Shown here piece by piece: positions 1-33,418 of a DNA stretch of 64,000 bases (positions within the stretch are counted from its first letter, which is position 1; each line of letters starts with the position of its first letter). Source of the DNA: an uncultured virus (IMG/VR IMGVR_UViG_3300028833_000149) (taxonomy: Duplodnaviria; Heunggongvirae; Uroviricota; Caudoviricetes); IMG/VR virus record IMGVR_UViG_3300028833_000149, positions 1 to 64,000 of that record; one strand, 5' to 3'. The position numbers and the translations under genes were made by a program. The notes below the pieces were generated by a model that worked only from the letters and a program-made list of their open reading frames with translations, did no database searches and was not told the origin of the DNA.

Positions 1-15
1 GGTATATCAATATCG

Positions 16-48
16 GCGTCACATCTATATGATGATGACGCTTTTTTT
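16..48 (+). terminator. Intrinsic terminator-like hairpin directly upstream of tRNA
   Basis: gcgtca...tgacgc stem followed by T7. Confidence 0.6.
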
Positions 49-123
49 GTCAGTTTCGTTCAAAGGCTAGGATGGAGCGTTCATACCGCTTAGATATGGG
101 TTCGATTCCCTTAGCTGACACCA
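49..123 (+). tRNA. tRNA with CAT anticodon (Met, possibly Ile2)
   Basis: Acceptor GTCAGTT/AGCTGAC, anticodon arm GAGCG-TTCATAC-CGCTT, GGTTCGATT T-loop, encoded CCA. Confidence 0.88.
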
Positions 124-151
124 AAAATGCGGCAAAATAAATAAAATTTTA

Positions 152-180
152 TTGACAAAAAGGAAAATTTATTATATAAT
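152..180 (+). promoter_or_regulatory. Consensus sigma70/sigmaA promoter (early class)
   Basis: TTGACA-17 nt-TATAAT with AT-rich UP region. Confidence 0.85.
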
Positions 181-208
181 ATAATTGTAAAAGATAGGAG
201 GAAATTAT

Positions 209-454
209 ATGATAAGTTTAGATTTAGATGTTGATATAAAAACTTTACAAATAATGTTATTAGGCTGGGATTACGATATTGATGAAATAGAAAATATGTC
301 TGCAGAGCAATTATTTGATAAAGTTAAACAAATTCTTGAAGTATATTGTGAAAAAGAAAGTTTAAGACAACAAGAACAAATTTTTATGAGTAATGATAGA
401 AAAACCGTAGATAAATATATTGATTTTTTAAAAAGAAAGAGAGATGATTGTTAA
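209..454 (+). CDS. Hypothetical protein
   Basis: ORF with AGGAGG RBS behind promoter. Confidence 0.7.
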   Translation: MISLDLDVDIKTLQIMLLGWDYDIDEIENMSAEQLFDKVKQILEVYCEKESLRQQEQIFMSNDRKTVDKYIDFLKRKRDDC

Positions 455-1127
455 AATGAGTAATGTATATTTTGTATCAGACACCCATTTTTCCCACAAA
501 AATATATTAAAATATGAACCAATTCGTATTGATTTCGTCGCCAAGTTCATGTCAGAACACGGTAGCAGAAAAACTTTTGACGAAGCTCGTGAGTTTTTAA
601 TAAATTGTATTGAAACAGGAGAAAATATTGAAACCATGCTTTATTGGCATGATGAGGCACTTATCGCCGCTTGGAACTCACAAGTTAAGGACGACGATGT
701 AGTATGGTTCTTAGGTGATTTCGGTTTTAAAGATACAAAGAAGATGCAAGAAATTGGTCGTAGATTAAAAGGTCATAAGCGTATAATTATGGGTAACCAC
801 GATAGAGAAAAGCCTGAATTTTACTACACTTGCGGATTTGAATTTGTTAGTCCATATCCAGTAGTATTAAAGAGACATTTTATTCTATCTCATGCGCCTT
901 TATTTAAAGAACAAGCTGAAGATGGAGTAACAACTAAAGCTTTACCTATGGGACAGTTCTTTAATATTTATGGACACGTTCACAGTCATGGGGATTTTAA
1001 AACCATAGATGAAAATAGTGCATGTGTTTGTGTAGAACGTATCGACTTTACTCCTGTAAAATTACACGTATTCGATAGTTATGTTGAGGGTAGCGCAGGA
1101 AATCCCGCAAAGAATAGACAAAAGTAA
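444..1127 (+). CDS. Calcineurin-like metallophosphoesterase (start may be 456)
   Basis: SDTHF, LGDF, GNHD, SHAP, YGHVH motifs. Confidence 0.88.
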   Translation: MIVKMSNVYFVSDTHFSHKNILKYEPIRIDFVAKFMSEHGSRKTFDEAREFLINCIETGENIETMLYWHDEALIAAWNSQVKDDDVVWFLGDFGFKDTKKMQEIGRRLKGHKRIIMGNHDREKPEFYYTCGFEFVSPYPVVLKRHFILSHAPLFKEQAEDGVTTKALPMGQFFNIYGHVHSHGDFKTIDENSACVCVERIDFTPVKLHVFDSYVEGSAGNPAKNRQK

Positions 1128-1152
1128 AGATACTTTTATTAGTATCTTCTTT

Positions 1153-1229
1153 GGACCCGTAGCTTAATTGGTCAGAGCAGCGGACTCATAACCCGCCGGT
1201 TCTCGGTTCAAGTCCGAGCAGGTCCACCA
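1153..1229 (+). tRNA. tRNA-CAT, Ile2 (lysidine)-like body
   Basis: GGACC.../GGTCC-A-CCA ends, CTCATAA loop, GGTTCAAGTCC; resembles Firmicute tRNA-Ile2. Confidence 0.88.
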
Positions 1230-1255
1230 AAATTTTAAATTGAGAGGAATTAAAT

Positions 1256-1963
1256 ATGTATAAAGGATTATATGATAAGTTTTCAAATTGGTTCAGAGGC
1301 GGCAATATTTGGCTTTATTCAGACCCACATTTTGGCGACGAAGAAATGAAGGAAATCCGCAAGAATTATATTAGTGATGAAGAACAAATTAAGCGTATCA
1401 ATTCAAAAGTAGGAAAGAATGATACAATTATTTTCTTGGGAGATATTGGTAATGTTGAATGCATTAAGAAAATTCGTGGCTATAAAGTATTGATTATGGG
1501 TAATCACGATAAAGGCGCAACTAAATATAAGAGAGTAGTAAAAGAAACTCAAACTTTTAATGCGGCTGAAGTTACGGTTGAAGATTTAGATAAAATTAAA
1601 GAATTAGGTTTTAGTTTTGTAAATCAACCTGATAAAGTTAAGGAATTGGGATTAGATAAGTATTTTCATACAATAATAGAAGATAATCATTTATTTGATG
1701 AGGTATTTGAAGGACCTGAGTTTATTAACGATAAGATCGTTTTATCTCACGAGCCTTTAGATTTATACGCATTCAATATTCATGGACACAAGCACGATTT
1801 GGAATATAAATATGACGATAAGCACTTAAATATATGTGCGGAAGCAATAGATTATACACCAATTAGTTTGCTTTCTCTATTGAAGAATGGTGTAGCAAGT
1901 AAGATTGACGATATTCATAGAATTACTATTGATAAAGCAACAGAGAGAAAGAAAGGAAAATAA
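1256..1963 (+). CDS. Calcineurin-like metallophosphoesterase (second copy)
   Basis: SDPHF, LGDI, GNHD, SHEP, HGHKH motifs. Confidence 0.88.
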   Translation: MYKGLYDKFSNWFRGGNIWLYSDPHFGDEEMKEIRKNYISDEEQIKRINSKVGKNDTIIFLGDIGNVECIKKIRGYKVLIMGNHDKGATKYKRVVKETQTFNAAEVTVEDLDKIKELGFSFVNQPDKVKELGLDKYFHTIIEDNHLFDEVFEGPEFINDKIVLSHEPLDLYAFNIHGHKHDLEYKYDDKHLNICAEAIDYTPISLLSLLKNGVASKIDDIHRITIDKATERKKGK

Positions 1964-1964
1964 T

Positions 1965-2432
1965 ATGGAATCATTAAAGGATTATTTAGAGTATTATTCC
2001 AAGTATGGTATTGAAGAAAAAGAAATTGTTAAACAATTTATTACAGATAAAAATTTGGAACTAGATTATTCAAATATGATTATGGAATTAGTTCAAACAA
2101 GATTGTATAAAGAACAATATAAACAAGCAAAAGCAAAAGAAGTAATATTATACTATAATAGTTGTTGCGGACAAACTCATAACAAAGAATGGACAAATGA
2201 AGAAAATACTTTATGGGATAAATGGGTTATTGAATATGCATTAAATTTTGAATTAAGTGAATCAACAAAAGAGATTATCAAACAAAAAGTGCCGCAAATG
2301 ATCGCTCCAAATTGGGGTTTTAGAGGATTACTTGCATATATAAATAAAGAGTGCGGTGTTCTTTTTAAAGACCAAAAAAGTAAAGATGACTTTGATTTAT
2401 TACAAGTGCCAAAAAGTTTTGGAAATTACTAA
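1965..2432 (+). CDS. Hypothetical protein
   Basis: ORF; ATG at 1965 after AAGGAA RBS. Confidence 0.7.
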   Translation: MESLKDYLEYYSKYGIEEKEIVKQFITDKNLELDYSNMIMELVQTRLYKEQYKQAKAKEVILYYNSCCGQTHNKEWTNEENTLWDKWVIEYALNFELSESTKEIIKQKVPQMIAPNWGFRGLLAYINKECGVLFKDQKSKDDFDLLQVPKSFGNY

Positions 2433-2458
2433 TGGGTGGCAATAATGCTGCCTTAAAT

Positions 2459-2532
2459 ATCGGCTTAGTATAACGGTATTATAGCGGCCTCCAAATCCGA
2501 AGATAGAGTTTCGACTACTCTAGCCGGTGCCA
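2459..2532 (+). tRNA. tRNA-Trp(CCA) with imperfect anticodon stem
   Basis: ATCGGCT/AGCCGGT acceptor, G73, CCA end, anticodon CCA at 2491-2493. Confidence 0.85.
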
Positions 2533-2577
2533 AATGAAATAGTAGAGGAGAAAATATTGTTTTTCTTCTCTTTTTTA

Positions 2578-2606
2578 TTGACAATAAGCAAAAAATATAA
2601 TAAAAT
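2578..2606 (+). promoter_or_regulatory. sigma70-type promoter fused to upstream terminator
   Basis: TTGACA-17-TAAAAT. Confidence 0.75.
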
Positions 2607-2654
2607 ATAATTGTAAAAAAGAAATAGAAAAATAGGAAAGTAGAGGAACAAAAA

Positions 2655-2879
2655 ATGATAGTATATGTATTAACACATTGTGCGGCAGAAGAAAATTATA
2701 CACCAGAAGTTTTTACAGATGTAGAAAAAGCTTATAAGAGATTAAAAAAAGTATATGAAGATTGTATAGAGGATGACGAGTCCGTAGTTTCATGCGATCT
2801 TTATGATACATCAGCGTGTATTGTATATGTAGATGATAGTTATGATAAGTTAGATATTTTTTCAGTTGAGGTAGAATAA
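2655..2879 (+). CDS. Small acidic hypothetical protein
   Basis: ORF with GAGG RBS. Confidence 0.7.
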   Translation: MIVYVLTHCAAEENYTPEVFTDVEKAYKRLKKVYEDCIEDDESVVSCDLYDTSACIVYVDDSYDKLDIFSVEVE

Positions 2880-3151
2880 TGAGTAGTTTAAATTTTGATT
2901 TTGAAAAGAAATTATTAAATTTTATAGAAAAGAATTGTAATTGCAATTTTAAAGTTGAAATTATTAAAGACGCATCCGGAGTGCATATTCAAAATGCAGT
3001 AGATAAAGCCGCAATTTATAAAGAATTAGAAAATATTGACGATATGTTAATAGAAATGAGTGGATATGATAGAGAGACTGAACAAATTGATTTAGAAGAT
3101 AATATCACTTTAGCTTGTGATAATATAAGAGATTTATTGGAAGGAGAATAA
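2879..3151 (+). CDS. Hypothetical protein
   Basis: TAATG-coupled ORF. Confidence 0.7.
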   Translation: MSSLNFDFEKKLLNFIEKNCNCNFKVEIIKDASGVHIQNAVDKAAIYKELENIDDMLIEMSGYDRETEQIDLEDNITLACDNIRDLLEGE

Positions 3152-3153
3152 AA

Positions 3154-3339
3154 ATGTTAATATTCGCATGGATTTTATGGAGTTTATATGTTTTAGGTTT
3201 TACTACTATTTTAGCAATATGGGTTGGAGCAATGTGTGCATTAAATGATAGCAGAGAGGTTCATATAAATATTAACTTACTATCAGTTTTAATGAATATC
3301 GCAGTATTCGTGTTCTTAAGTATATACTTGTTCGCATAA
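3154..3339 (+). CDS. Small membrane protein (2 TM)
   Basis: Two hydrophobic stretches, GGAG RBS. Confidence 0.7.
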   Translation: MLIFAWILWSLYVLGFTTILAIWVGAMCALNDSREVHININLLSVLMNIAVFVFLSIYLFA

Positions 3340-3383
3340 TTATAGATGTAAAGAAGAAAATGTTGATTTTTCTTCTTTTTTTA

Positions 3384-3412
3384 TTGACAAAACGTGAAAT
3401 TTGACTTATAAT
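3384..3412 (+). promoter_or_regulatory. Consensus sigma70 promoter
   Basis: TTGACA-17-TATAAT. Confidence 0.85.
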
Positions 3413-3450
3413 AATAATGTAAATAAAGATAAGGAAAGTAGGTAGTAACT

Positions 3451-3651
3451 ATGAATAATGTGGTTGAATTGAAAGCAAAAGCTTTTGACTTAATTGATAT
3501 TAAAAATGTAGATATTAAATTATTAAAGTGGGCATATCCTAGTGTAGAAGCTTATAATGTTAAGGTAAGAGTAGAAAAAGATTATTGGTGGAGAGAGGAA
3601 TTAACAAAAGAAGAATTTGAATTTCTCGGTAGAATGGTAGGTGCTGAATAA
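3451..3651 (+). CDS. Hypothetical protein, similar to C-terminus of 4535..5005
   Basis: VDI..L....VEAYN...EELTKEEF pattern shared. Confidence 0.7.
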   Translation: MNNVVELKAKAFDLIDIKNVDIKLLKWAYPSVEAYNVKVRVEKDYWWREELTKEEFEFLGRMVGAE

Positions 3652-3860
3652 TGAATAATTTATGGTTTGAATTTTTAGTTGATAAATTCGTAACAGACGA
3701 AACTGATATTCGTTGTTGCGGCTCTTGTCAAGGCGGATGTGTTAATCCTGCAATTTGTGCTTTTATCTGTTGCGGAATTCCAGTTGAAAAGTTTAAAGAA
3801 TATGTTAAAAAAGATATTGATAAATTAAGACAAGAATTTCGTGAGAAGAATGATTTGTAA
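3651..3860 (+). CDS. Small Cys-rich hypothetical protein
   Basis: CCGSCQGGC..C...CC cluster; TAATG coupling. Confidence 0.65.
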   Translation: MNNLWFEFLVDKFVTDETDIRCCGSCQGGCVNPAICAFICCGIPVEKFKEYVKKDIDKLRQEFREKNDL

Positions 3861-3888
3861 TAATATCTAAAGAAAGCTGGTAAAAATT

Positions 3889-4233
3889 ATGAAATATAAA
3901 ATTTATAGAGGATTTGACGATTGGTATGAGTTATATGAAAAATATGAACATGCCGATTTTGATGATAATTTAGAAAGAAAAGCTTTTAGAGAAGAATTTG
4001 AAACAATTAGTATGTCTATGTGGCATCATTATATAAATCTTGCAAGTAATGACATTGAAAAACAACAAGAACTTGCAGAAGCACTAGCTGAGATGTGGTG
4101 TTCTGGTATAGGTTGTGATTCAATAAAAGGTGCTTATGAAGATGCATTGGACTATCTACGCTACGCAAGCGATAGAATGAATATAAATAGATGGATGCGT
4201 ATTCGTATTTTATTAAATTATGATGTTGAATAA
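3889..4233 (+). CDS. Hypothetical protein
   Basis: ORF in operon. Confidence 0.7.
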   Translation: MKYKIYRGFDDWYELYEKYEHADFDDNLERKAFREEFETISMSMWHHYINLASNDIEKQQELAEALAEMWCSGIGCDSIKGAYEDALDYLRYASDRMNINRWMRIRILLNYDVE

Positions 4234-4257
4234 AATATTTAGAAAGGGAATGAAAAG

Positions 4258-4545
4258 ATGCAACTAGAATTATATGGTTTTGAAATAAAAATAAAATCTT
4301 ATTTTACTATCACTATTGATGGTCTTTATTTAACTGGCAATATAACATTTGTTGATATCTTTGATATACCAATGTATTTAACTAAATATATTGTAGACAT
4401 TCCTGATATTTTATTATTTAATGATTATAATGAAGCTTTAAGATGTGAATATGAAATGCTTAAAAGACATTATTTATTAAGAAAAAATTGTAGTGTTAAA
4501 ATTGTTGAAATAAATAAAGCGGAGGTAGTTAGATATGATAGATAA
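4258..4545 (+). CDS. Hypothetical protein
   Basis: ORF in operon. Confidence 0.65.
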   Translation: MQLELYGFEIKIKSYFTITIDGLYLTGNITFVDIFDIPMYLTKYIVDIPDILLFNDYNEALRCEYEMLKRHYLLRKNCSVKIVEINKAEVVRYDR

Positions 4546-5005
4546 AGCGTTAGATAAGTTTAAACAAATAAACCAAATAAATCCTAATGAAGCATTAGAA
4601 TGTCTTAAAAGTATAGAAGAACATTGTAAAAGTGATTATGAATATTGTATTAGTTGTTATGATTATGAAAAAGAGTTGTCTACTATTAAACAAGCATTAA
4701 TTAAAGCACAAGAGTTAAAAAGTGAAAATAATGCTTTACTTGGTGAAAATAATGCTTTACTTGAAGAAAATAATAATTTATATGTTGAATTAACATTTTC
4801 TGATAAGCAGCATAAAGAGTTAATAGAAAACACAAAACAATATAAAAAGATGCTTGAGATTATTAAAGAAAAAGATGTTGATATTTATATTTTACAAAAA
4901 TGCAAAACAGTTGATGAATATAACTCTAAAATTGTTCATATTGTTGGAGAAACTAGAGAACTTGCCGAAGAAGAATTCAAATTATTAAAGGAATGGTTAA
5001 AATAA
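4535..5005 (+). CDS. Coiled-coil hypothetical protein
   Basis: GGAGG RBS; ENNALL heptad repeats. Confidence 0.7.
   Translation: MIDKALDKFKQINQINPNEALECLKSIEEHCKSDYEYCISCYDYEKELSTIKQALIKAQELKSENNALLGENNALLEENNNLYVELTFSDKQHKELIENTKQYKKMLEIIKEKDVDIYILQKCKTVDEYNSKIVHIVGETRELAEEEFKLLKEWLK
4722..4775 (+). repeat. 21-nt tandem repeat (about 2.5 copies) encoding heptads
   Basis: gtgaaaataatgctttacttg repeated. Confidence 0.75.
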
Positions 5006-5067
5006 TGAAAAAATTAACAAAACTAACTAAATAAGATACTTGGGAATTATTTGATAGATGGATTTTT

Positions 5068-5295
5068 ATGGACATATCACATTTTACAGGCGACGTTGAA
5101 GATAATTGTCTAACTGATGATGATGGCTATGGTCATTATATTTATGCCGATAATTGTAATCTATATGTTAATAAAGAAGAGTGCGCGGACTTACATAAAT
5201 TAGCTAATTATGGTTTTCATAGATTAGAAGAATTTATTGAACTAATGTCAAATGAAAAATATTATCTTATAGGTGTATTTTGGTATAATAAATAA
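5068..5295 (+). CDS. Hypothetical protein; probably originally began at 5005 (in-frame TAA at 5032)
   Basis: ORF; upstream in-frame coupled ATG. Confidence 0.55.
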   Translation: MDISHFTGDVEDNCLTDDDGYGHYIYADNCNLYVNKEECADLHKLANYGFHRLEEFIELMSNEKYYLIGVFWYNK

Positions 5296-5298
5296 GGA

Positions 5299-5661
5299 GT
5301 GAATAATATGATAAAATTAAATGTAAAAGGTCATAATGATATGTGTGGTGGATATTCATATTCTGGACAAGTGTCATTTGATGGAAAAACTGTTAAAGAA
5401 GTATTAGACGAAATTAGAGAATATGCAAAAGATCAAGATGCAAAATATCTAGGAGATGGTTTTGGCAATCCTGAAAGTGGAGGTTGTGATGCTTGGTGTA
5501 TTAAAATAGATGATGTAGTTTATTGGAATGGTTGGGTGCCACAATCTTGGGTAAAATATGGTGTTTACGACCATAGTTTAGATAATCTTATTGTAAAAGA
5601 TGTTCGAGTACACGGTGGTTGGTATTGTTTTTATGATTTTGAAATAATTACAAATAAATAG
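5299..5661 (+). CDS. Hypothetical protein (start may be 5308)
   Basis: AAGGAG RBS, open frame. Confidence 0.7.
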   Translation: MNNMIKLNVKGHNDMCGGYSYSGQVSFDGKTVKEVLDEIREYAKDQDAKYLGDGFGNPESGGCDAWCIKIDDVVYWNGWVPQSWVKYGVYDHSLDNLIVKDVRVHGGWYCFYDFEIITNK

Positions 5662-5689
5662 TAAAATGCAATTAATTAGTTTATTCTAC

Positions 5690-5718
5690 TTGACAGAACG
5701 TAAAAAATGTAATATAAT
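5690..5718 (+). promoter_or_regulatory. Consensus sigma70 promoter
   Basis: TTGACA-17-TATAAT. Confidence 0.85.
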
Positions 5719-5741
5719 ATTTGTAATAGGAGTGGTGTAAT

Positions 5742-6770
5742 ATGAAAAAACTGCAAATTTTAATTCCACATTACAAAGAAGATTTTAGTATAATCAAGCC
5801 TTTATTGGATTCTATAAATATTCAACAGAATATTAATTTTGATGATATTGGAGTTATTATTGTAAATGATGGTAATGAGGTTATTATAGATAAAAATAAT
5901 TTTAATAATTATAATTATGAAATACAATATTATATAAATGAACATAAAGGTGTGTCCGCAACAAGAAACGCTTGTTTAGATAAAGCAGAAGCAGAATATG
6001 TTATGTTCTGTGATTGTGATGATATGTTCTCTAATATTTGTGGATTATGGTGTATATTTAGAGAAATGAATACTAAAAATTCTAATGAAGAAAATGTAGG
6101 TTTCGATGTATTAGTTTCAGTATTTATGCAAGAAAGCCATGACCCTAAAACTAATACAATAACTTACATAAATCGCGGCGACAAAGATAAAGATGGTTTG
6201 GATTCTGTATTTGTTCATGGCAAAGCTTATCGTAGACAATATTTATTAGACAACAATATAAGATGGTGTGAAAAATTAACAATTCACGAAGATAGTTATT
6301 TTAACTGTCTTTGCCAAACTCTAACTAAAAATATTAAGTATATTTCTACTCCATTTTATCTGTGGAAATGGCGTGGTGAATCTGTTTGTAGAAGTGATGA
6401 GAAGTATATATTAAAAACCTATACTAATTTATTAGATAGTTCAGATGCATTAGTAGAACAATTTATATTAAGAAAGAAGCTAGAAAATGCTCAATATAAT
6501 ATTACTCATATGATATACAACACTTATTTTACAATGAATACTGACGAGTGGTTAGCGGCAGAAAATAGACCTTATAGATTAAAAACTGAAAGACATTTTA
6601 AATATTACTATAATAAGTATAGTTATCTTATGAATGGAATAAAACCTGAAGTTAAAATGCAAATAATTAAAACTTTAAAAACAAACTTTTTTAATAAAGG
6701 GTTAGTTATTGAAAAATTTTCATTTGAAGATTGGATTAGATATATACAAGGATTAAAAGATGAGCAATAG
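5742..6770 (+). CDS. Glycosyltransferase family 2 (GT-A fold)
   Basis: ILIPHY, IVNDG, GVSATRN, FCDCDD (DxD), HED motifs. Confidence 0.88.
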   Translation: MKKLQILIPHYKEDFSIIKPLLDSINIQQNINFDDIGVIIVNDGNEVIIDKNNFNNYNYEIQYYINEHKGVSATRNACLDKAEAEYVMFCDCDDMFSNICGLWCIFREMNTKNSNEENVGFDVLVSVFMQESHDPKTNTITYINRGDKDKDGLDSVFVHGKAYRRQYLLDNNIRWCEKLTIHEDSYFNCLCQTLTKNIKYISTPFYLWKWRGESVCRSDEKYILKTYTNLLDSSDALVEQFILRKKLENAQYNITHMIYNTYFTMNTDEWLAAENRPYRLKTERHFKYYYNKYSYLMNGIKPEVKMQIIKTLKTNFFNKGLVIEKFSFEDWIRYIQGLKDEQ

Positions 6771-6787
6771 ATAAAAGGAGCATTAAA

Positions 6788-6988
6788 ATGACAACAAAAG
6801 AAATATTAACAGCAATAGCGATTTTAATGGAAGAAAATTTTAATGAATATTTTGAAGATTATGATGCACAAGTTCGTCATATAGTATTAGACAATCATAA
6901 ATATGATGTTTTTTCTGACGATTTAAGACTTTTTAGTGAATTACAAAATAAGCTTGAAGAATTAGATAATATAAAAATGAACAAATAA
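6788..6988 (+). CDS. Hypothetical protein
   Basis: AAGGAG RBS. Confidence 0.65.
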   Translation: MTTKEILTAIAILMEENFNEYFEDYDAQVRHIVLDNHKYDVFSDDLRLFSELQNKLEELDNIKMNK

Positions 6989-7000
6989 TTACATAAAATA

Positions 7001-7029
7001 TTGACAAAGCTCATAAAATGTAATATAAT
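7001..7029 (+). promoter_or_regulatory. Consensus sigma70 promoter
   Basis: TTGACA-17-TATAAT. Confidence 0.85.
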
Positions 7030-7052
7030 ATATTTGTAGAAAGAGTGATAAA

Positions 7053-7292
7053 ATGTTTGTAAAATTAAAACCAATAGATAAAAATATGGAAAAGAAAATA
7101 ATAAAAAATGGCGGCGTTTTAGTAGAAGATAATTGCTACATTTTTTTAGTTGATGATAATGAAGTAATGCCGCTATTAGAGAGACTTCTTTCTATTGATG
7201 AAAATTTAGAGAAATATAATTATTGTAAAGAACCACTTTTTAGTTATTATTATGATTATAATACTCAACATTTTATCATTAAATATGAATAA
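7053..7292 (+). CDS. Hypothetical protein
   Basis: ORF behind promoter. Confidence 0.65.
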   Translation: MFVKLKPIDKNMEKKIIKNGGVLVEDNCYIFLVDDNEVMPLLERLLSIDENLEKYNYCKEPLFSYYYDYNTQHFIIKYE

Positions 7293-7306
7293 AAAGAGGT
7301 GAGATA

Positions 7307-7570
7307 ATGAGACAATTACAAGTTGTAGTTCCTAGTGCCGCAGAAGCTGAAAGAGTTAAATTTACTGCGCATTTAGTATCTATTGCATCTCGTTATGTCA
7401 GTGAAATGTATATTACAAGCGAAAGAACTAGCATTGATTTAAAATCAATAATGGGTATGATGACTATTGTTATAAACTCTGGAAAGACTTTTGATATTGA
7501 AATTACTGGAATTGATGAAGACGATGCGGCAAAAGCTATTACAGATTACTTTATTGAAGGGAGAATGTAA
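7307..7570 (+). CDS. HPr/Crh-like phosphocarrier homologue lacking the His15 motif
   Basis: 87 aa; DLKSIMGMM (Ser46 motif), ASRY.SE, G.DEDDA; no GLHARP. Confidence 0.8.
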   Translation: MRQLQVVVPSAAEAERVKFTAHLVSIASRYVSEMYITSERTSIDLKSIMGMMTIVINSGKTFDIEITGIDEDDAAKAITDYFIEGRM

Positions 7571-7572
7571 TA

Positions 7573-7824
7573 ATGAGTGAACAAGAAAAGCAAAGAAGAC
7601 TAAAATTGGAAAATAAAATGTATATACTAAAAATAGTAGACTTAGTAATTTACATATCTATTACAATTATGCTATGTTTAAGTCTAATTTTTGATTGGTC
7701 TATGTGTAGATATATTACATGCATAATCTTCTGTTTAACTATAATTAGTGATTTAGTTGTAGAAAATTTAATATATAAAGAATATTTATACTCAAAGATA
7801 GAAGATGGTTTGAATGAAAAATAG
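7573..7824 (+). CDS. Small membrane protein (2 TM)
   Basis: Hydrophobic segments. Confidence 0.65.
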   Translation: MSEQEKQRRLKLENKMYILKIVDLVIYISITIMLCLSLIFDWSMCRYITCIIFCLTIISDLVVENLIYKEYLYSKIEDGLNEK

Positions 7825-12463: not shown

Positions 12464-13237
12464 ATGGCAAAACAACTAACCGAATGACTTGATGAATTTG
12501 TTAATAATGGAGCTAATCCTAATGATGTTCCTAATTGGCCTGAAGAAAAAGGCGGATCAACTCAATCTGATTGAGGACAAACAGATTCAACTAAACCAGA
12601 CTTTATAAAGAACAAGGAATTGGTAACAGATTTAATTAAATCAGATGCAGAAGGAAATGTGTATATAAATTCAGGATTTGTTAATCAATATACATTAGCT
12701 GCTGAATATGATCCTACTGTAACTTATTATGAAGCTTATATACCACTTGATCCTACAAAATTAACTGGTACTTGGGTTCCAGATGAAACTACTATACCAG
12801 TAGAATATGTAACAACCTTTACAGAAGGACAAGCCCTTATATATTCACGTAGTATATGGAAATTAGAATATATTGATAGTTTTAAACATCATGACAATTA
12901 TACGATTTTAATTACTACACACTATTATGAAGATGGACAAAAGAAAACTTCATGAATGCCAATGTATTGGGATAATTGGAATATTGATAATATAGCTTTT
13001 AATGCAGAATTGCCTGAAACTTATAATTTTATACAATCTTATTTTATTAAACGTTCTGATACTCCTTTAAGTGCAGAATTGCCAACATTAGCAGATGTAT
13101 TAGCATATGACCAATCTCATCCAAGTTATAGAGTTATTGAATTAACTGAACAAACATTTGTTCCTAACACTTATTATACATTACAAAATAATCCTACTTG
13201 GGTAAATGTTAAAGATTTAATAAACAATGGAAACTAG
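12464..13237 (+). CDS. Putative virion accessory/fibre-like protein (code 4), paralogue of 14233
   Basis: Joins track ORFs through 3 TGA; N-terminus WLDEFV..GA..NDV.NWPE; QSDWGQTDSTKPDFIKNK fibre-type motif. Confidence 0.75.
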
Positions 13238-13342: not shown

Positions 13343-13624
13343 ATGGAATTAAAAGACTTACTAAATTATGTAGAAGGATTAGGCTCTAATTTAACTAAGA
13401 TTGAAATCAAGGTTGCGGCACAAGATGGTTCATATTTCGTTGATGAAACAAAGGAAACATATGTTTACGAAGATGAGTCAGATGCTAATGATAAGGTAGA
13501 TGAAGTTCGCCAAAATCGTGGATTCAAAGGTGTAGATAAGAAAGATAAAGAAGCCAAGTGTAATAAAGATGGCGAAATGACTAAACCTGAAAGTCATACA
13601 GTAGTAGCAAAGCTATTACACTAA
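13343..13624 (+). CDS. Hypothetical protein
   Basis: AAGGAA RBS. Confidence 0.7.
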   Translation: MELKDLLNYVEGLGSNLTKIEIKVAAQDGSYFVDETKETYVYEDESDANDKVDEVRQNRGFKGVDKKDKEAKCNKDGEMTKPESHTVVAKLLH

Positions 13625-13644
13625 TTAATTGAGGTGGTGATGCT

Positions 13645-14004
13645 ATGGCATACGGTAGTTCTGGTATCTATTGTATCACAAATAGTTTAACAGGAAAAAA
13701 ATATATAGGACAGACAAATAATCTAGCAAAACGTAAAGTGCAACATTTATCCGCATTAAGAACTCATGTTCACGATAATCGTTTGATGCAAGCGGACTGA
13801 GATGCAGATGCGGAAGCAGAGAAACATTTTAAGTTCGAAATTATTGAAAAATGTCCACAAAGTAAAATGAATGAACGAGAAAATTATTGAATTCAAGAAT
13901 TACAAACTTGGGCACCTAATGGATATAATATAAATTGGAAACCTGTTAATCGTGAAAAAATAAAAGAAGCAAAAAAGAAAAAAGGTTATCATAAAACTCG
14001 TTAA
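13645..14004 (+). CDS. Free-standing GIY-YIG endonuclease, 119 aa (code 4; missing from ORF track)
   Basis: GIYCITN..TGKKYIGQT..R..QH, ERENYWI, GYN; 2 TGA. Confidence 0.9.
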
Positions 14005-14019
14005 TAATTAAAATTATAT

Positions 14020-14050
14020 GTAAGCGTGAATTTTCATCCGCTTACTTTTT
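14020..14050 (+). terminator. Terminator-like hairpin abutting tRNA(UCA)
   Basis: GTAAGCG/CGCTTAC stem + TTTTT. Confidence 0.65.
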
Positions 14051-14148
14051 AGGGGCTTAGTTTAATGGCAAAACACTGGTCTTCAAAACCAGCCGTCGGT
14101 GAAAAGTTGTAGTAGCCCATGCGGGTTCGAGTCCTGCAGCCCCTGCCA
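14051..14148 (+). tRNA. Opal-decoding tRNA(UCA), Trp-type body, 28-nt variable region
   Basis: AGGGGCT/AGCCCCT acceptor, G73, CCA, CTGGT-CTTCAAA-ACCAG, GCGGG-TTCGAGT-CCTGC. Confidence 0.9.
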
Positions 14149-14161
14149 TTGAGGTGTAAAT

Positions 14162-14190
14162 TTGATTTTATGTCTCTTTTTTTGTATAAT
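14162..14190 (+). promoter_or_regulatory. Second-class promoter (TTGATT)
   Basis: TTGATT-17-TATAAT followed by aatattgggtaagaa. Confidence 0.6.
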
Positions 14191-14232
14191 AATATTGGGT
14201 AAGAAGATTATCAAATTTAATGAGGTGACAAA

Positions 14233-14721
14233 ATGTCTAAGAAGTTTAATGATTGGCTTGATGAATTCGTTCAACAAGGTGCAGATGCTAATGATGTAAG
14301 TAATTGGCCTGAAAATTCAAGTTCTGGTGGAAGTATCGGTTTCAAAGAAGGTTCTAAAGTAATTGTTGATTTTAGTCAATATAATTATGTAGTTTCTCAT
14401 CATGGAGGAACTAATGTTACAGTAGTTTTTGAATTACATAATGTTAATGATGGTGGTATAGTCGAATACGATTCTATGATTACAGCAGCTATGGTAGTTG
14501 AAGCTAATGAGGCTGAAAATCAATTAGTCGCTTATTTTGTTGTAGATGGTGCATATTACCAAGTATTATCTAATTCAGTAGTTATCTATGAAGGAGATAC
14601 TAGTAACGTTTACAATACTAGCAATTTACAAGATTTACCAACTGTAGAATTTACAATGGCTTCTGACGCTGATGGCTTAGTAGCTGTAGCTGGAATTGAA
14701 GGCGTATCAGTAGAATATTAA
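14233..14721 (+). CDS. Putative virion accessory protein, paralogue of 12464
   Basis: Shared N-terminal ~28 aa, Gly/Ser linker, beta-rich C-terminus. Confidence 0.75.
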   Translation: MSKKFNDWLDEFVQQGADANDVSNWPENSSSGGSIGFKEGSKVIVDFSQYNYVVSHHGGTNVTVVFELHNVNDGGIVEYDSMITAAMVVEANEAENQLVAYFVVDGAYYQVLSNSVVIYEGDTSNVYNTSNLQDLPTVEFTMASDADGLVAVAGIEGVSVEY

Positions 14722-14722
14722 T

Positions 14723-15226
14723 ATGAAACAATATGACAACAAATTAGATATCACTAAGGCAGTTGTCAATTCAGAAGAAGTAATTATAAAATTAAAACAA
14801 AAATTTGGAACTCAAGGGGACATTGGTGCCCCTTGTTCTGGTTATTGGCTGCTTACTGATGGAACTCTTTTAAATTGCGGCGCTCACGGCGGTATTGACA
14901 ACTTTTTAATTAAAGAAGGCTATATCATTAATTTATCAGACCATTTTACTGTTTATGATGGTAGTCAATTTATGGACTATATAAATGCTGTTCGTATCCG
15001 CAATGAAGTTCCGCATTTACATTATCCAGCTTATTTAACATTACCAGAAAATAATCTTACTTCTCAACAGTGAATCAAAGTAAGACAATGACTAGAAATC
15101 ATTTTAACTAATTGTAAAACTTATCTTATTGTTGATTGTGATGGTTCTACAAAAAATTATCATAATTTTGAAGATGCTGACGCTATAGATGATATTAAAA
15201 TGTGATATCGAACTAAAAATTTATAG
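14723..15226 (+). CDS. Hypothetical protein (code 4)
   Basis: 3 TGA read through to TAG next to the RBS of the next gene. Confidence 0.7.
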
Positions 15227-24592: not shown

Positions 24593-27118
24593 ATGGGACA
24601 ACAAGTAAAAACAAAAAAGATTAGAAAAAGAAATGGCAGTGAACAAGCATTTGATATCAATAAGGTAAAAAATGCTATAAAGAAAGCTAACGACTCTGTT
24701 GAAGAAGAATACAGATTAAATGAGCCTACTTTTAACAGTGTCATTAATACATTGATAGGAATATTAAATAGATATTCTGTTATTGATGTAGAAACAGTGC
24801 AAGATTTTGTAGAAAAAACACTTATGAAATATAATTGTTATCATGTTGCAAAATCATATGTATTGTATCGAGAAGAAAGAAAGAAAAGCAAACTCTTAAA
24901 TGATGATGAGGAAAAAATTGTATCTATTTGTAATACAACAAACGAAGATGTAAGCGGCGATAATGCAAACAAAAGACCTACACAAAATAATACTATGCGT
25001 GACTATATTGCTGGTGTAGAGTGTAAATCAATTGCACGTAAAACTTTACCAAAGGATATTATTCAAGCGCATGATGCAGGTTTAATTCATTATCACGATA
25101 TGGATTATGCACCAGTACAACCAATGAGTAACTGTTGTTTAGTTAACACTTTTGATATGATAACAAATGGTTTTCAAATGGGTGATGCAAAAATTGAGCC
25201 ACCTCATACTTTCTCAACAGGAGAAAATTTAATGGCACAAACTGCATTACATATTAGTAGTACTCAATATGGTGGACAAACACACTCTGTTGCCGCATTA
25301 GCTCACTTAGTTGAAAAAACAAGACAAAAGGCAAGACAAAAATATCAAGGATACACAAGTTTATCTGAAGAAGATAGACAATTATTGGTAGAGCAAGATG
25401 TATATGAAGATATTAAAAAAGGCGTTCAAACTTTCCAATATCAAGTAATTACAATGAGTTCTGCAAATGGTCAAACTCCTTTTATTTCTCTTGTTTTAAA
25501 TTTAGCTGAAGCGATGACAGTAGAAGAAAGAAGAGATTTAGCCGCAATCATTGAAGAAGTATTAATTCAAAGAAAACAAGGTATTAAAAATAATCAAGGC
25601 AAATGGATTGGACCTTTATTTCCAAAACTATTGTACTTTATGTGTGATGGTTTAAATGTTGAACCAACTGACCCTTACTATTATTTAACTGAACTTTCAG
25701 CAGAATGCGAAGTAACTCGTATGCAACCTGATATTGTTAGTGAAAAGAAAAGCCGTGAAGCAAAAGAAGGATTAATGGTACCAAGTATGGGTTGTCGTAG
25801 TTTCTTAACTCCATATTGGAAGAAAATAACTTACACACAGCGTCGCGGCGAAAAAGGATTCATTCACGCAGAATTAAATAGTATTAAGACACTTGGTTTA
25901 AATGCAGAATTTTTAGATGAACCTGACAAAAACACTTTGTGTAAAAGTTTAAATCCACTTACTGCCGACGAGATATTAAATGCCGTAATAAATAAATATA
26001 AACCAACTATCGCCGCAACCGATGTTGATAATTATTATCATATACAATTACCTGAACATTTAGTTATTTATAATTATTTAGGTAATACTGGTTGGATAGA
26101 TGAATTTGTTTGGAATAATAAAGAAATTAATATTGTATGCCACGAACCAAAAACATATGGACGTTGGAATCAAGGTGTTGTTACAATTAATTTACCTTGG
26201 ATTGCATTAGAATCAATAGAACAAGAAAGAAATTTCTTTGATGTATTAAGAGAACGTTCTGAATTAGTAAGAAAAGCATTACAAACAAGACATCAAAGAT
26301 GCCGCGAAATTCGTGCAGAAAATGCGCCAGTGTTATGGATGTATGGAGCAATTTCTCGTTTACAACCAAAAGATGATTTAAGTAGTATGTTAGATGATGT
26401 AGATTATACAACAATTTCTTATGGTTATGTAGGATTATATGAAACTTGTATGGCTTTAATTGGAAAATCAAATACTACTGAAGAAGGACAAAAGTTATCT
26501 ATTTTAATATTAAATTTTATAAATGATTTATTAGCTAAGTGGAAAAAAGAAGATGGTATTCCTTATTCTATTTATGGAACTCCTGAAGAACAAACTACTG
26601 AAAAATTCGCAAAAGCATTAAAGAAAAGATTTATTGAATTTGGAGAAGTAAAAGGAGTAACAGACCACGATTACGTAACAAATAGCTACCACGTAAATCC
26701 TGCCGAAAAAATCAATGCTTTTGATAAACTACGTATTGAAGGTAAATTCTTACAATTAAGTAAGGGTGGTGCTGTTAGTTATGTTGAATGTTCTAATGAA
26801 TTAGATAGAAATTTAGCAGCTATCACAACATTATTTAAGTATATGTATGAAAATATATTATATAGTGAATTAAACTTCACAAATGAAGACTATTGTGATA
26901 ATTGCGGTTACTATGGCGAATTAATATTAGACAATACTTTAAATGGTAAATTCTTATTCCATTGTCCAAAATGCGGATGTCACGATGCTACAAAGCTACA
27001 TGCAAGACGTAGATTATGTGGTTATTTAGGCGAAGTTGCAAATGGTATTGGTCCAGATAGTCCTAATGCAAATCAAGGACGTTTAGCGGATATATTTGCA
27101 AGAGTAAAACATATTTAG
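24593..27118 (+). CDS. nrdD: Anaerobic ribonucleoside-triphosphate reductase (class III) with ATP-cone
   Basis: ATP-cone, NCCL, MGCRSFL, TNSYHV, CxxC..CxxC, RRLCGYL. Confidence 0.96.
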   Translation: MGQQVKTKKIRKRNGSEQAFDINKVKNAIKKANDSVEEEYRLNEPTFNSVINTLIGILNRYSVIDVETVQDFVEKTLMKYNCYHVAKSYVLYREERKKSKLLNDDEEKIVSICNTTNEDVSGDNANKRPTQNNTMRDYIAGVECKSIARKTLPKDIIQAHDAGLIHYHDMDYAPVQPMSNCCLVNTFDMITNGFQMGDAKIEPPHTFSTGENLMAQTALHISSTQYGGQTHSVAALAHLVEKTRQKARQKYQGYTSLSEEDRQLLVEQDVYEDIKKGVQTFQYQVITMSSANGQTPFISLVLNLAEAMTVEERRDLAAIIEEVLIQRKQGIKNNQGKWIGPLFPKLLYFMCDGLNVEPTDPYYYLTELSAECEVTRMQPDIVSEKKSREAKEGLMVPSMGCRSFLTPYWKKITYTQRRGEKGFIHAELNSIKTLGLNAEFLDEPDKNTLCKSLNPLTADEILNAVINKYKPTIAATDVDNYYHIQLPEHLVIYNYLGNTGWIDEFVWNNKEINIVCHEPKTYGRWNQGVVTINLPWIALESIEQERNFFDVLRERSELVRKALQTRHQRCREIRAENAPVLWMYGAISRLQPKDDLSSMLDDVDYTTISYGYVGLYETCMALIGKSNTTEEGQKLSILILNFINDLLAKWKKEDGIPYSIYGTPEEQTTEKFAKALKKRFIEFGEVKGVTDHDYVTNSYHVNPAEKINAFDKLRIEGKFLQLSKGGAVSYVECSNELDRNLAAITTLFKYMYENILYSELNFTNEDYCDNCGYYGELILDNTLNGKFLFHCPKCGCHDATKLHARRRLCGYLGEVANGIGPDSPNANQGRLADIFARVKHI

Positions 27119-27134
27119 TAATGGAGGTATGGTT

Positions 27135-27635
27135 ATGAATTATATTAAAATTACTGAATGTGATACAATGAATGGTATAGGAGTAGGCATCGTGCTATGA
27201 GTTAGTGGATGCAGATGTAAATGTGAAGGTTGTTACAATCAAGAGTCTTGAGATTTTTGTGCAGGGCAACTTTTCACAAAAGAAACCGAAGAATATATAA
27301 TTAACTTATTAAAAGAAAAGCCTTATTATACAAGAATAACTCTTTCTGGTGGACATCCATTTGAGCCAGAGAATGAACAAGCTTGTGAAGAATTGTGCGG
27401 CAAAATCAAACAAGAATGCCCTAACGTAAAAATTTGGGCTTATAGTGGTTTTTATTGGGATAAAATTAAAAATAGTCCAATAATGAAATATGTCGATATT
27501 TTAGTCGATGGACCATTTATTGCCGCGCTATACAACGCAGACTTGAAATGGCGTGGAAGTTCTAATCAATCTGTTATTGATGTTCAAAAGACTATAAAAC
27601 AAAATGAGATTGTAATTGCGGAGGAGTTGATATAA
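27135..27635 (+). CDS. nrdG: NrdD activase, radical SAM (code 4)
   Basis: [45 protein letters not shown] at 27198, 27249. Confidence 0.94.
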
Positions 27636-31244: not shown

Positions 31245-31254
31245 GCTCTTTTTT
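31229..31254 (+). terminator. Intrinsic terminator
   Basis: AAGAGTCT/AGGCTCTT + T-run. Confidence 0.7.
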
Positions 31255-31328
31255 GATTCATTTTTGAACCAAATTTTATTCTGTTTTTAGAAACTTTATA
31301 AAACACTAATATAGAAGTGAAAAAATAT

Positions 31329-31357
31329 TTGACAAAAAGGAAATTTTATCATATAAT
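31329..31357 (+). promoter_or_regulatory. Consensus sigma70 promoter
   Basis: TTGACA-17-TATAAT. Confidence 0.85.
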
Positions 31358-31397
31358 ATATTTGTAAATAAAAGTAAAGGAGTAATAATAGATAATT

Positions 31398-33347: not shown

Positions 33348-33356
33348 TAAAAATTC

Positions 33357-33385: not shown

Positions 33386-33418
33386 ATATTAGTAAAAGAA
33401 AATAATAAAAAATAAAGG

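What the first reader, a model, noticed from the sequence alone, without database searches (positions are those of the whole stretch)
14051..14148. Opal-suppressor tRNA with a Trp body and a 23-nt insertion bounded by AGCC direct repeats
Seen: anticodon TCA at 14083-14085, with an acceptor (AGGGGCT/AGCCCCT, G73) and D arm like Firmicute tRNA-Trp. The variable region is 28 nt instead of 4-5 and forms no clean stem. AGCC occurs at 14091-14094 and 14114-14117; removing the 23 nt 14095-14117 restores a canonical 75-nt tRNA with a CCCAT variable loop. Inference: the insert could be a processed mini-intron that times the code switch, a mobile-element footprint, protection from nucleases, or a new class-II-like Trp tRNA. 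A long arm plus G73 could also attract SerRS.
Basis: partly seen in the sequence, partly recalled or inferred. Interest (0 to 1): 0.85.

Follow-up and report, generated by a model that had tools for sequence, protein, structure and literature searches.

The report
Phage UGA-reading tRNA, odd extra arm
This is a real phage tRNA that reads the stop codon UGA as tryptophan, and its odd 28-base stretch is a worn-down version of an extra arm that in about 80 related phage tRNAs copies the normal tryptophan anticodon loop.

Summary
The sequence facts hold. Window 14051-14148 is a tRNA gene (Rfam tRNA, 59.5 bits) with anticodon UCA, a Trp-type acceptor stem, G73 and a 28-nt variable region (14093-14120) that barely folds (-0.9 kcal/mol).

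It lies in an incomplete (CheckV 66%) virus record from ruminant gut. There TGA never ends an ORF, and it sits at conserved Trp positions.

The reading "canonical tRNA plus a 23-nt insert bounded by AGCC" is not supported. Such a repeat arises in 6.5% of shuffles. The 23-mer occurs nowhere else. Relatives show that the long region is inherited.

I collected 83 distinct G73 tRNA(UCA) sequences with long variable regions. In 81 of them the region is a hairpin with a covarying 5-bp stem and a 7-nt loop N-UCCA-NN. Its consensus equals the tRNA's own anticodon arm with C34 in place of U34, that is, a copy of the tRNA-Trp anticodon arm.

The two exceptions are the window and its syntenic relative L100.

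Most likely the window tRNA is a working Trp opal decoder whose pseudo-anticodon arm has decayed. The idea that the arm helps host TrpRS is inferred, not shown.

My searches found no natural precedent in print, only an engineered one.

The parts
14051..14148 (+). tRNA(UCA) gene with encoded CCA. Acceptor 14051-14057 / 14138-14144, G73 at 14145.
   Evidence: Rfam RF00005, 59.5 bits, full model 1-71. Sequence read.
14076..14092 (+). Anticodon arm CUGGU-CUUCAAA-ACCAG. Anticodon TCA at 14083-14085.
   Evidence: Rfam alignment. ARAGORN's Phe(aaa) call rests on a shifted, poorer stem.
14093..14120 (+). 28-nt variable region with weak structure (GGU 14098-14100 pairs with GCC 14115-14117). It sits where relatives carry a pseudo-anticodon hairpin.
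   Evidence: Fold of -0.9 kcal/mol. Alignment A2, columns 43-70. Only 1 of 5 family stem pairs can form in the window row, read from A2.
14095..14117 (+).
   Evidence: Present. A repeat of this kind arises in 6.5% of shuffles. Unique in the window. A 20-nt part is absent from IMG/VR.
14023..14050 (+). Conserved inverted repeat (AAGCG...CGCTT) and T-run directly upstream of the tRNA, shared with L089 and L100.
   Evidence: Alignment A1. Not called a terminator by the consensus scan. Role unknown.
13645..14004 (+). GIY-YIG endonuclease gene (2 in-frame TGA) just upstream. It is syntenic in relatives L089 and L100, with tblastx pieces about 93% identical.
   Evidence: Pfam PF01541, 3e-13. tblastx.
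2459..2532 (+). Second Trp tRNA, anticodon CCA, with a short variable loop.
   Evidence: ARAGORN. Rfam 44.7 bits with several non-standard pairs.

Best explanation
The element is a genuine and probably working phage tRNA that reads UGA as tryptophan. The phage's replication genes avoid TGA, while its tail and structural genes use it heavily.

The 28-nt variable region is not a recent insertion into a canonical tRNA. It is the lineage-specific, decayed form of a long extra arm shared by a large family of phage tRNA(UCA). In that family the arm is a near-exact copy of the tRNA-Trp anticodon stem-loop (5-bp stem, loop CUCCAAA or GUCCAAA). It most likely arose by tandem duplication of the anticodon arm: the 5' copy became UCA and decodes, and the 3' copy kept CCA.

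Inferred mechanism for the family: the CCA copy offers host TrpRS, which reads the anticodon, a cognate anticodon although the decoding one has changed.

In the window and its relative L100 that mimic is gone. This tRNA must therefore rely on its acceptor-stem and G73 determinants, or on something in the unsequenced third of the genome.

Shown: tRNA fold, UCA anticodon, TGA = Trp, family membership by synteny and body, covariation and loop conservation of the family arm.

Inferred: homology of the window's region to that arm, the TrpRS role, and that the window copy is charged.
For: The tRNA is real. It scores 59.5 bits. By direct reading it carries A1-U72, G2-C71, G3-C70, G4-C69, G5-C68 and G73. 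These are the B. subtilis / E. coli Trp determinants listed in Giege and Eriani 2023 (PMC9976931, passages). The only GenBank phage matches, 7 of 7, cover its 3' 29 nt and are annotated tRNA-Trp.

The code:
- 0 of 59 ORFs end in TGA.
- By my addition of the per-ORF counts, 25 ORFs hold 113 in-frame TGA.
- GyrB/A, DnaB, primase, ligase, UvrD and NrdD have 0 TGA, and Pol III alpha has 1 against 25 TGG. Minus-strand structural ORFs have up to 17.
- PFL has 3 of 3 TGA on W in PDB homologues. RNase H has 1 of 1 on W in the best hit and Y in E. coli.

The family:
- The IMG/VR scan gave 27 loci, 19 with variable regions of 25-28 nt.
- The metagenome scan gave 117 stretches.
- 83 distinct G73 long-arm sequences were parsed, and 81 have the N-UCCA-NN loop.
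- The arm stem has 5 of 5 pairs with changes on both sides and 93.4% of cells paired. The whole structure is 98.0% paired, against 41-52% when slid.
- The consensus anticodon arm is GCGGU-CUUCAAA-ACCGU and the consensus arm copy is GCGGU-CUCCAAA-ACCGU.
- Control: the same body pattern with CCA at the true anticodon plus a long region gave 0 loci in IMG/VR, against 19 with UCA.

Synteny: L089, L014/L156 and L100 share the upstream ORFs (tblastx pieces about 93% identical), the leader and the tRNA body with the window. They have three different variable regions. L089 and L014 carry the CCA hairpin.

Signs of function in the window copy:
- Its D stem differs from the family by changes that keep pairing: G12-C23 to U-A, and U13-G22 to U-A.
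- A strain in run X4 has 31 differences over 801 nt. None of the differences that one search lists lies in the 98-nt tRNA, but 39 further differences were not shown.

No TrpRS gene was found in 4 phage records carrying the hairpin form. Two of these are at least 95% complete.
Against: - The window's own region has neither the hairpin nor UCCA. Its homology to the family arm rests on position and synteny, not on an alignable sequence, and alignments to L089 and L100 are ambiguous.
- No experiment or structure shows that TrpRS touches the arm.
- An arm at the variable position is far from the true anticodon. The hairpin is joined by 4-7-nt and 4-nt unpaired linkers, unlike known class II arms.
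- The UCCA tetranucleotide also occurs in U73, Gly-type tRNA(UCA) (3 distinct sequences). Its place in the loop shifts in the CCG and UCG tRNAs of L054 and L144. A Trp (CCA) and a Gly (NCC) reading therefore cannot be separated, and another role for 'CCA' is open.
- All scans required a fixed D-arm pattern and CTTCAAA, so the counts describe that subset only.
- The amino acid for TGA in the hairpin-bearing phages was tied to Trp only through G001. Of 32 aligned TGA, 19 face TGA and 4 face W in the window phage. The Pol A alignment for G003 was uninformative, with F, Q and E opposite TGA.
- The record is 66% complete, so another tRNA(UCA) or a TrpRS may exist.
- The RNA-library contig (X5) does not prove transcription.
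Confidence: 0.6

Rival explanations
1. Decaying or pseudo tRNA. The arm has lost its function-bearing hairpin because the gene is no longer used, and UGA is read by another tRNA, or with a phage TrpRS, encoded in the missing third of the genome.
For: The record is 66% complete. The variable region is nearly unstructured. The window and L100 are the only 2 of 83 distinct sequences without the UCCA hairpin.
Against: All other tRNA features are intact, at 59.5 bits. D-stem changes preserve pairing. No listed difference falls in the 98-nt gene in a strain with 31 differences over 801 nt, although 39 differences went unlisted. The window holds 113 in-frame TGA by my addition, and no other UCA tRNA lies in the 73 kb. 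L100 keeps a stable arm of another sequence.
Confidence: 0.13
2. The 23 nt between the AGCC repeats are removed from the transcript (a mini-intron or processing step), giving a canonical 75-nt tRNA-Trp(UCA).
For: AGCC stands at both borders, and excision leaves a 5-nt loop, CCCAT.
Against: A repeat of this kind arises in 6.5% of shuffles. 26 of 86 long-arm family members, the window among them, also have one, mostly GGGT. There it reflects the roughly 21-22-nt period of the duplicated anticodon arm, not excision. No Rfam intron or ribozyme family matches the window at gathering score. In relatives the region is a hairpin kept by covariation. A contig from an RNA library carries the region unspliced, though this may be DNA or a precursor.
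Confidence: 0.04
3. The long region plus G73 makes the tRNA a SerRS (or other non-Trp) substrate, so UGA is read as Ser or ambiguously.
For: [quoted passage not shown]
Against: TGA sits on conserved Trp in PFL (3 of 3) and in the best RNase H match. The window region has no stable stem to present. In allo-tRNAs a single bulge in the arm already blocked SerRS (PMC7590224, abstract). 13 of 13 phage tRNA(UCA) tested inserted Trp in E. coli extract, although whether any had long arms is not stated (PMC12636597, section 7).
Confidence: 0.04
4. The fast turnover of the variable region among syntenic phages is driven by the adjacent GIY-YIG homing endonuclease. This could act through selection for cleavage-resistant target variants or through co-conversion, rather than through tRNA function.
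For: A GIY-YIG gene lies 46 nt upstream and is conserved in L089 and L100. The flanks are 80-86% identical while the variable region cannot be aligned. D-arm type and flank identity group the three relatives differently, which hints at recombination.
Against: No cleavage site is known. All three relatives carry the endonuclease gene. This does not explain the family-wide conserved hairpin. It is compatible with the best explanation rather than opposed to it.
Confidence: 0.1

Closest known systems
Phage-encoded opal suppressor tRNA-Trp(UCA) of TGA-recoded (code 4) gut phages
   Same: UCA anticodon and Trp-type acceptor with G73. It is carried by a phage whose replication genes are compatible with the standard code and whose structural genes are full of TGA. 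Phage tRNA(UCA) insert Trp in E. coli extract (PMC12636597, sections 5, 7 and 8 read). The early/late recoding model itself is recalled from Borges et al. 2022, which I did not read here.
   Different: A 28-nt variable region instead of 4-5 nt. None of the papers opened mentions variable arms in these tRNAs: PMC12636597 and PMC10879173 were searched for 'variable', with 0 occurrences.
[quoted passage not shown]
   Same: An anticodon-arm copy placed as the variable arm to recruit a synthetase's anticodon-binding domain while the true anticodon is a suppressor (section 2.6 read). The family around the window looks like a natural version of this design.
   Different: The engineered case is synthetic, for His, on a 9/3 allo-tRNA body, and needed an extra anticodon-binding domain fused to HisRS. 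Here the tRNAs are natural, Trp-type and 7/5, and no extra domain is known. The window's own copy lacks the mimic.
tRNA-Sec (selC)
   Same: UCA anticodon, G73, long extra arm and a length of about 95 nt. ARAGORN labels the hairpin-type relatives tRNA-SeC.
   Different: The window has a 7-bp acceptor and 4-bp D stem, not 8 bp and 6 bp. Rfam assigns the general tRNA model to the window and to 8 relatives tested, not the Sec model. TGA falls on Trp positions. The true selC genes picked up have a different body.
Class II tRNAs (Ser, Leu, bacterial Tyr)
   Same: An extra arm emerging from the variable region.
   Different: Trp-type body. The family arm is flanked by 4-7 and 4 unpaired nucleotides and has a conserved 7-nt loop. 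The window's arm has no stable stem.
tRNAs for reassigned CGA/CGG (to Trp) and UGA (to Gly) in Absconditabacteria (Shulgina and Eddy 2021, PMC8629427)
   Same: Loci L054 and L144 carry neighbouring tRNAs with anticodons CCG, UCG and UCA. Their acceptor features match that paper's criteria for Trp (A1-U72, G73) and Gly (G1-C72, C2-G71, G3-C70, U73) (methods passage). All of them have a long arm with a UCCA-type loop.
   Different: The organism behind L054 and L144 is unknown. The paper's main text does not discuss long arms, and its figures and supplements were not seen.

Membership tests
tRNA (Rfam RF00005) | Cloverleaf with a 7-bp acceptor, D, anticodon and T arms, and the conserved T loop | tested here: met
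   59.5 bits against a gathering score of 29, model positions 1-71 complete.
Bacterial tRNA-Trp identity | G73 discriminator and A1-U72, with G2-C71, G3-C70, G4-C69 and G5-C68 (B. subtilis) | tested here: met
   Read directly from 14051-14057 / 14138-14145. The list of determinants comes from PMC9976931 passages.
Bacterial tRNA-Trp identity | Anticodon C34 C35 A36 | tested here: not met
   The anticodon is U34 C35 A36. This is the expected change for a UGA reader.
Bacterial tRNA-Trp identity | Charged with Trp | not testable with these tools
   Indirect only: TGA falls on conserved W in PFL (3 of 3) and in the best RNase H hit.
Phage long-arm tRNA(UCA) family (defined here) | Trp-type body, UCA anticodon and a variable region of 23-28 nt at the same position | tested here: met
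   Alignment A2. The window shares its T arm and acceptor exactly with L014 and L089 and is syntenic with L089, L100 and L156.
Phage long-arm tRNA(UCA) family (defined here) | Arm is a 5-bp stem with a 7-nt loop N-UCCA-NN (pseudo-anticodon) | tested here: not met
   No UCCA in 14093-14120. In the family register 1 of 5 pairs forms. The fold is -0.9 kcal/mol.
tRNA-Sec | 8-bp acceptor with 5-bp T stem (8/5), 6-bp D stem, and a stable long arm | tested here: not met
   7/5 arrangement, 4-bp D stem and no stable arm. Rfam assigns the general tRNA model.
tRNA-Ser type (class II, SerRS substrate) | Stable long variable stem in the proper orientation | tested here: not met
   At best a 3-bp stem. TGA falls on Trp positions.
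Intron-containing tRNA (group I or bulge-helix-bulge) | Recognisable intron fold or splice motif at the insert borders | tested here: not met
   No intron or ribozyme family in the window at Rfam gathering scores. 23 nt is too short for a group I intron. No helix-bulge-helix can form around 14094/14118, by reading the folds. Splicing itself was not assayed.
Mobile-element footprint | Other copies of the insert, or target-site duplication beyond chance | tested here: not met
   Unique in the window at up to 3 mismatches. A 20-nt part is absent from IMG/VR. The repeat arises in 6.5% of shuffles.

The most novel reading that the evidence does not exclude
Natural tRNAs that carry a second, 'identity' anticodon arm. 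When a phage (or a recoded bacterium) changes a tRNA's decoding anticodon to UCA, CCG or UCG, a tandem duplicate of the anticodon stem-loop is kept as the variable arm with the cognate CCA (or NCC). An unaltered host synthetase that reads the anticodon can then still charge it. The window's tRNA and L100 would be lineages that later dispensed with the arm, which shows that it is conditionally needed.
Probability: 0.4. Interest if true: 0.9.

Novelty: new variant of a known kind. Interest (0 to 1): 0.72.

Why it matters
Phages that rewrite UGA as tryptophan must get a host synthetase to charge a tRNA whose anticodon, a main Trp identity element, has been changed. How they manage this is an open point in stop-codon recoding.

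The family found around this window suggests one answer: keep a copy of the cognate anticodon arm elsewhere on the tRNA. This can be tested directly by charging assays with and without the arm.

If it holds, it is a natural counterpart of an engineered design principle (pseudo-anticodon V-arms). It would also be a ready source of suppressor tRNAs for genetic-code expansion, and a caution for annotation, because ARAGORN calls these genes SeC, Phe or Leu.

The window's own copy, which lacks the mimic yet appears to be maintained, is the natural control for how far the arm is needed.

Tried and rejected
- Close relatives through the downstream ORF 14233-14721 in IMG/VR: none found.
- DNA similarity of 13600-14800 to GenBank phages: no match.
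- A stricter 5'-half pattern in IMG/VR: 0 loci.
- The first anticodon-arm pattern mostly retrieved true selC genes. Only L007 was relevant.
- A scan for more Gly-type tRNA(UCA) in IMG/VR returned 3 loci, none of them a tRNA.
- The idea that the place of UCCA in the loop separates Trp from Gly pseudo-anticodons was dropped. L054 and L144 showed Trp-type tRNAs (CCG, UCG) with the register I had first read as Gly.
- The NrdG protein had no PDB match. The PhoH TGA positions fall on unconserved columns. The Pol A of G003 gave F, Q and E opposite TGA in distant homologues. None of these settles the code.
- The four bacterial MAG contigs that hold family members are labelled Treponema, Lachnospiraceae, Prevotella and Bacilli. 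They give no consistent host, and a search of those genomes with the window tRNA found only the family members themselves.
- The promoter and terminator scan near the gene was within shuffle expectation: 6 promoter-like sites against 3.7 +/- 1.9, and 0 terminators.
- Literature: eight searches found no natural tRNA with a pseudo-anticodon or duplicated anticodon arm. The hits for 'additional anticodon stem' were unrelated.

Full report
**The object**

Window 14051-14148 (+) is a tRNA gene. The Rfam tRNA model matches 14051-14145 over its whole length at 59.5 bits (gathering score 29). It places the anticodon loop as CUUCAAA, so the anticodon is UCA at 14083-14085. About 25 nt in the variable region are left unaligned.

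Read directly, the parts are:
- acceptor AGGGGCU/AGCCCCU
- U8 A9
- D arm GUUU-AAUGGCA-AAAC
- A26
- anticodon arm CUGGU-CUUCAAA-ACCAG
- variable region 14093-14120 (28 nt)
- T arm GCGGG-UUCGAGU-CCUGC
- G73 and an encoded CCA

ARAGORN misreads the gene as Phe(aaa), or as Leu(caa) with a 2-nt intron, because it shifts the anticodon stem.

The variable region alone folds to only -0.9 kcal/mol, a GGU/GCC stem with a 14-nt loop.

However, 6.5% of shuffles of the region (1292 of 20000) give an equally 'excisable' repeat of 4 nt or more.

**The genome**

The window is the first 64 kb of a 73,004-bp linear IMG/VR virus record. CheckV puts its completeness at 66%. GC content is about 29%.

None of 59 ORFs ends in TGA. 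By my addition of the per-ORF counts, 25 ORFs hold 113 in-frame TGA.

The split follows function:
- DNA gyrase B and A, DnaB, primase, ligase, UvrD-type helicase and NrdD have no TGA. Pol III alpha has 1 TGA against 25 TGG.
- The long minus-strand ORFs at 52-64 kb carry up to 17 each. These include a tail-fibre-type ORF and a tape-measure-like ORF.

TGA means Trp. In the pyruvate formate-lyase gene all 3 TGA align to W in PDB homologues. In RNase H the single TGA aligns to W in the best hit and Y in E. coli. PhoH was uninformative.

No other tRNA(UCA), no TrpRS and no release factor lie in the 73 kb.

Contigs of runs from other studies show the phage in sheep and cattle gut samples.

**Not an artefact**

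Three runs from three other studies hold contigs that carry the variable region without a single difference:
- X3 record 1, covering 14016-14138
- X4 record 9, covering the whole 801 nt laid
- X5 record 24, from an RNA library, covering 14082-14450

The X4 strain differs at 31 places in the 801 nt. None of the differences that one search lists lies in the tRNA, but 39 further differences were not shown. Run X6 holds a relative whose variable region is 2 nt shorter and differs by several indels.

**Relatives change the reading**

I scanned IMG/VR for the Trp-like D arm followed by CTTCAAA and any variable length. This gave 27 loci. Nineteen have variable regions of 25-28 nt and eight have 3-5 nt. 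The same pattern, restricted to long regions, gave 117 stretches in the metagenome collection. It gave only 4 in one genome each of 185,579 prokaryote species.

After removing duplicates, 83 distinct G73 sequences with long regions were parsed, the window included. In 81 of them the region is a hairpin with a 5-bp stem and a 7-nt loop N-UCCA-NN. The loop sequences are:

| Loop | Count |
|---|---|
| CUCCAAA | 49 |
| GUCCAAA | 23 |
| GUCCAUA | 5 |
| UUCCAAA | 3 |
| GUCCAUC | 1 |

On the MAFFT alignment A2 all five stem pairs show changes on both sides, and 93.4% of cells pair. For the whole cloverleaf plus arm, 98.0% of cells pair, against 41-52% when the partners are slid.

CUCCAAA is, by my recollection, the standard tRNA-Trp anticodon loop. 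It is also the loop of the phage's own tRNA-Trp(CCA) genes.

The majority consensus of the true anticodon arm is GCGGU-CUUCAAA-ACCGU. That of the arm copy is GCGGU-CUCCAAA-ACCGU. They are identical except at position 34. In a subset a GGGT repeat marks the roughly 21-22-nt period.

The arm therefore looks like a tandem duplicate of the anticodon arm. The 5' copy became UCA and the 3' copy stayed CCA.

Within one tRNA the two stems are less alike than between tRNAs (5.10 against 5.59 of 10; 2000 of 2000 permutations were higher). This would fit avoidance of mispairing between the two stems.

As a control, the same body with CCA at the true anticodon plus a long region gave 0 loci in IMG/VR.

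Eight relatives tested score 53-62 bits as tRNA, not tRNA-Sec.

Four phage records with the hairpin form encode no TrpRS. Two of them are at least 95% complete. Two of the four were checked for coding density, and both gain ORF coverage when TGA is read as sense.

**Where the window stands**

The only two of the 83 sequences without the UCCA hairpin are the window and L100. These two also share a D stem (GUUU/AAAC) that differs from the family (GUGU/GCAC) by pair-preserving changes.

L089 (8.9-kb contig), L014/L156 (17.6-kb IMG/VR record) and L100 (68.5-kb contig) are syntenic with the window. They share:
- the same two upstream ORFs, including a GIY-YIG endonuclease (tblastx pieces about 93% identical)
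- the same leader with an inverted repeat and T-run
- the same tRNA body

Their nucleotide identity to the window is 86% (L089) and 80% (L100).

Yet the three variable regions cannot be aligned with confidence:
- L089 and L014 have the hairpin AGCCG-AGUCCAAAC-CGGCU.
- L100 has GGUCC-CAGGU-GGGCC.
- The window has none.

The window shares GUUGU(A/G)GU and GCCC(A/U)U with L100, and a possible CGGU...AAAA vestige with the family arm. I regard these as suggestive only.

The 23-nt 'insert' is unique in the window, and a 20-nt part of it is absent from IMG/VR.

**Mechanism**

Bacterial TrpRS uses G73, the first acceptor pairs and the anticodon C34 C35 A36 (PMC9976931, passages). A UGA reader must give up C34.

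The most economical reading of the family is that the CCA copy in the variable arm acts as a pseudo-anticodon for host TrpRS.

Support for this reading:
- The faithful copy of the loop and of the two loop-proximal pairs.
- The restriction of the arm to the UCA form.
- The absence of phage TrpRS genes.
- Loci L054 and L144, where neighbouring tRNAs with anticodons CCG and UCG carry Trp-type acceptors (A1-U72, G73) and also UCCA-loop arms. CGA and CGG are the codons reported as reassigned to Trp in Absconditabacteria (PMC8629427, passages).

Three distinct tRNA(UCA) with a Gly-type acceptor and U73 carry NCCA loops. UCCA fits both a Trp reading (U33 C34 C35 A36) and a Gly reading (U34 C35 C36 A37), and its place in the loop shifts. 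The two readings therefore cannot be told apart, and a different role for the CCA motif is not excluded.

An engineered precedent exists. Mukai (2020) placed a His pseudo-anticodon arm in the V-arm of allo-tRNAs and gained charging by HisRS fused to an extra anticodon-binding domain (PMC7590224, section 2.6).

Eight literature searches found no natural case. Figures and supplements of PMC8629427, and the tRNA table of PMC12636597, could not be seen.

**The window copy**

The window's tRNA lacks the mimic. Several points argue that it is still in use:
- an intact cloverleaf
- pair-preserving D-stem changes
- no listed difference within the gene in a diverged strain
- heavy TGA use with no other decoder in the 73 kb

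It would then depend on acceptor and G73 determinants, or on a host TrpRS that tolerates UCA.

The rivals are:
- a decaying gene backed up by something in the missing third of the genome
- processing of the 23 nt
- mischarging
- endonuclease-driven turnover of the region

None has positive support beyond what is listed under each.

**Verdict**

The 'insertion bounded by repeats' interpretation is not. The gene is a divergent member of a previously unremarked family of phage tRNAs with a duplicated anticodon arm. As far as my searches reach, the family has no natural precedent in print, and it makes a specific question about synthetase recognition directly testable.

Noticed in passing
L054:556-1085 and L144:294-536: Clusters of long tRNAs (90-95 nt) with anticodons CCG, UCG and UCA. 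Each has a variable-arm hairpin whose loop holds UCCA (CUUCCAA, AAGUCCAAC, CUUCCAG, CCUCCAG). The acceptor features fit Trp for CCG and UCG, and Gly for UCA. This matches the codon reassignments reported for Absconditabacteria.
   Followed up: partly
window 27880-29907: A phage-borne pyruvate formate-lyase gene (Pfam PFL-like, 6e-207). It stops within the glycine-radical domain at 675 aa, ending where PDB chain 38la_A (687 aa) ends. It lies beside NrdD (24593-27118) and an NrdG-type activase (27129-27635).
   Followed up: no
window 2459-2532: A second Trp tRNA with CCA anticodon scores only 44.7 bits, with several non-standard pairs. Relative G002 also has a tRNA-Trp(CCA) about 130 nt from its long-arm tRNA(UCA).
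   Followed up: partly
window 13645-14004: A GIY-YIG endonuclease gene directly upstream of the tRNA is conserved in the syntenic relatives, while the tRNA's variable region differs in each. D-arm type and flank identity group the relatives differently, hinting at recombination within the tRNA gene.
   Followed up: partly
window 12464-13237 and 14233-14721: Two ORFs flanking the tRNA region share a similar N-terminus (..WLDEFV..G...NDV.NWPE..), which suggests paralogues with a common N-terminal module.
   Followed up: no
family alignment A2 (loci L013-L154): Within one tRNA the stems of the true anticodon arm and of the arm copy are less alike than between different tRNAs (5.10 against 5.59 of 10 positions; all 2000 permutations were higher). 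This may reflect avoidance of mispairing between the two hairpins.
   Followed up: partly
window 1-7824 and 30579-43272: Two long blocks of ORFs (12 and 11 ORFs) hold no TGA at all but use TGG, whereas neighbouring ORFs hold up to 17 TGA. The tRNA(UCA) gene sits among TGA-containing genes, not at a block border.
   Followed up: partly
L175 (116.9-kb contig binned with a Lachnospiraceae MAG): A family member whose arm loop reads CGCCCACAA. It keeps CCA but not UCCAAA. The four bacterial MAG contigs holding family members carry inconsistent taxon labels, so they are probably binned phage contigs.
   Followed up: no
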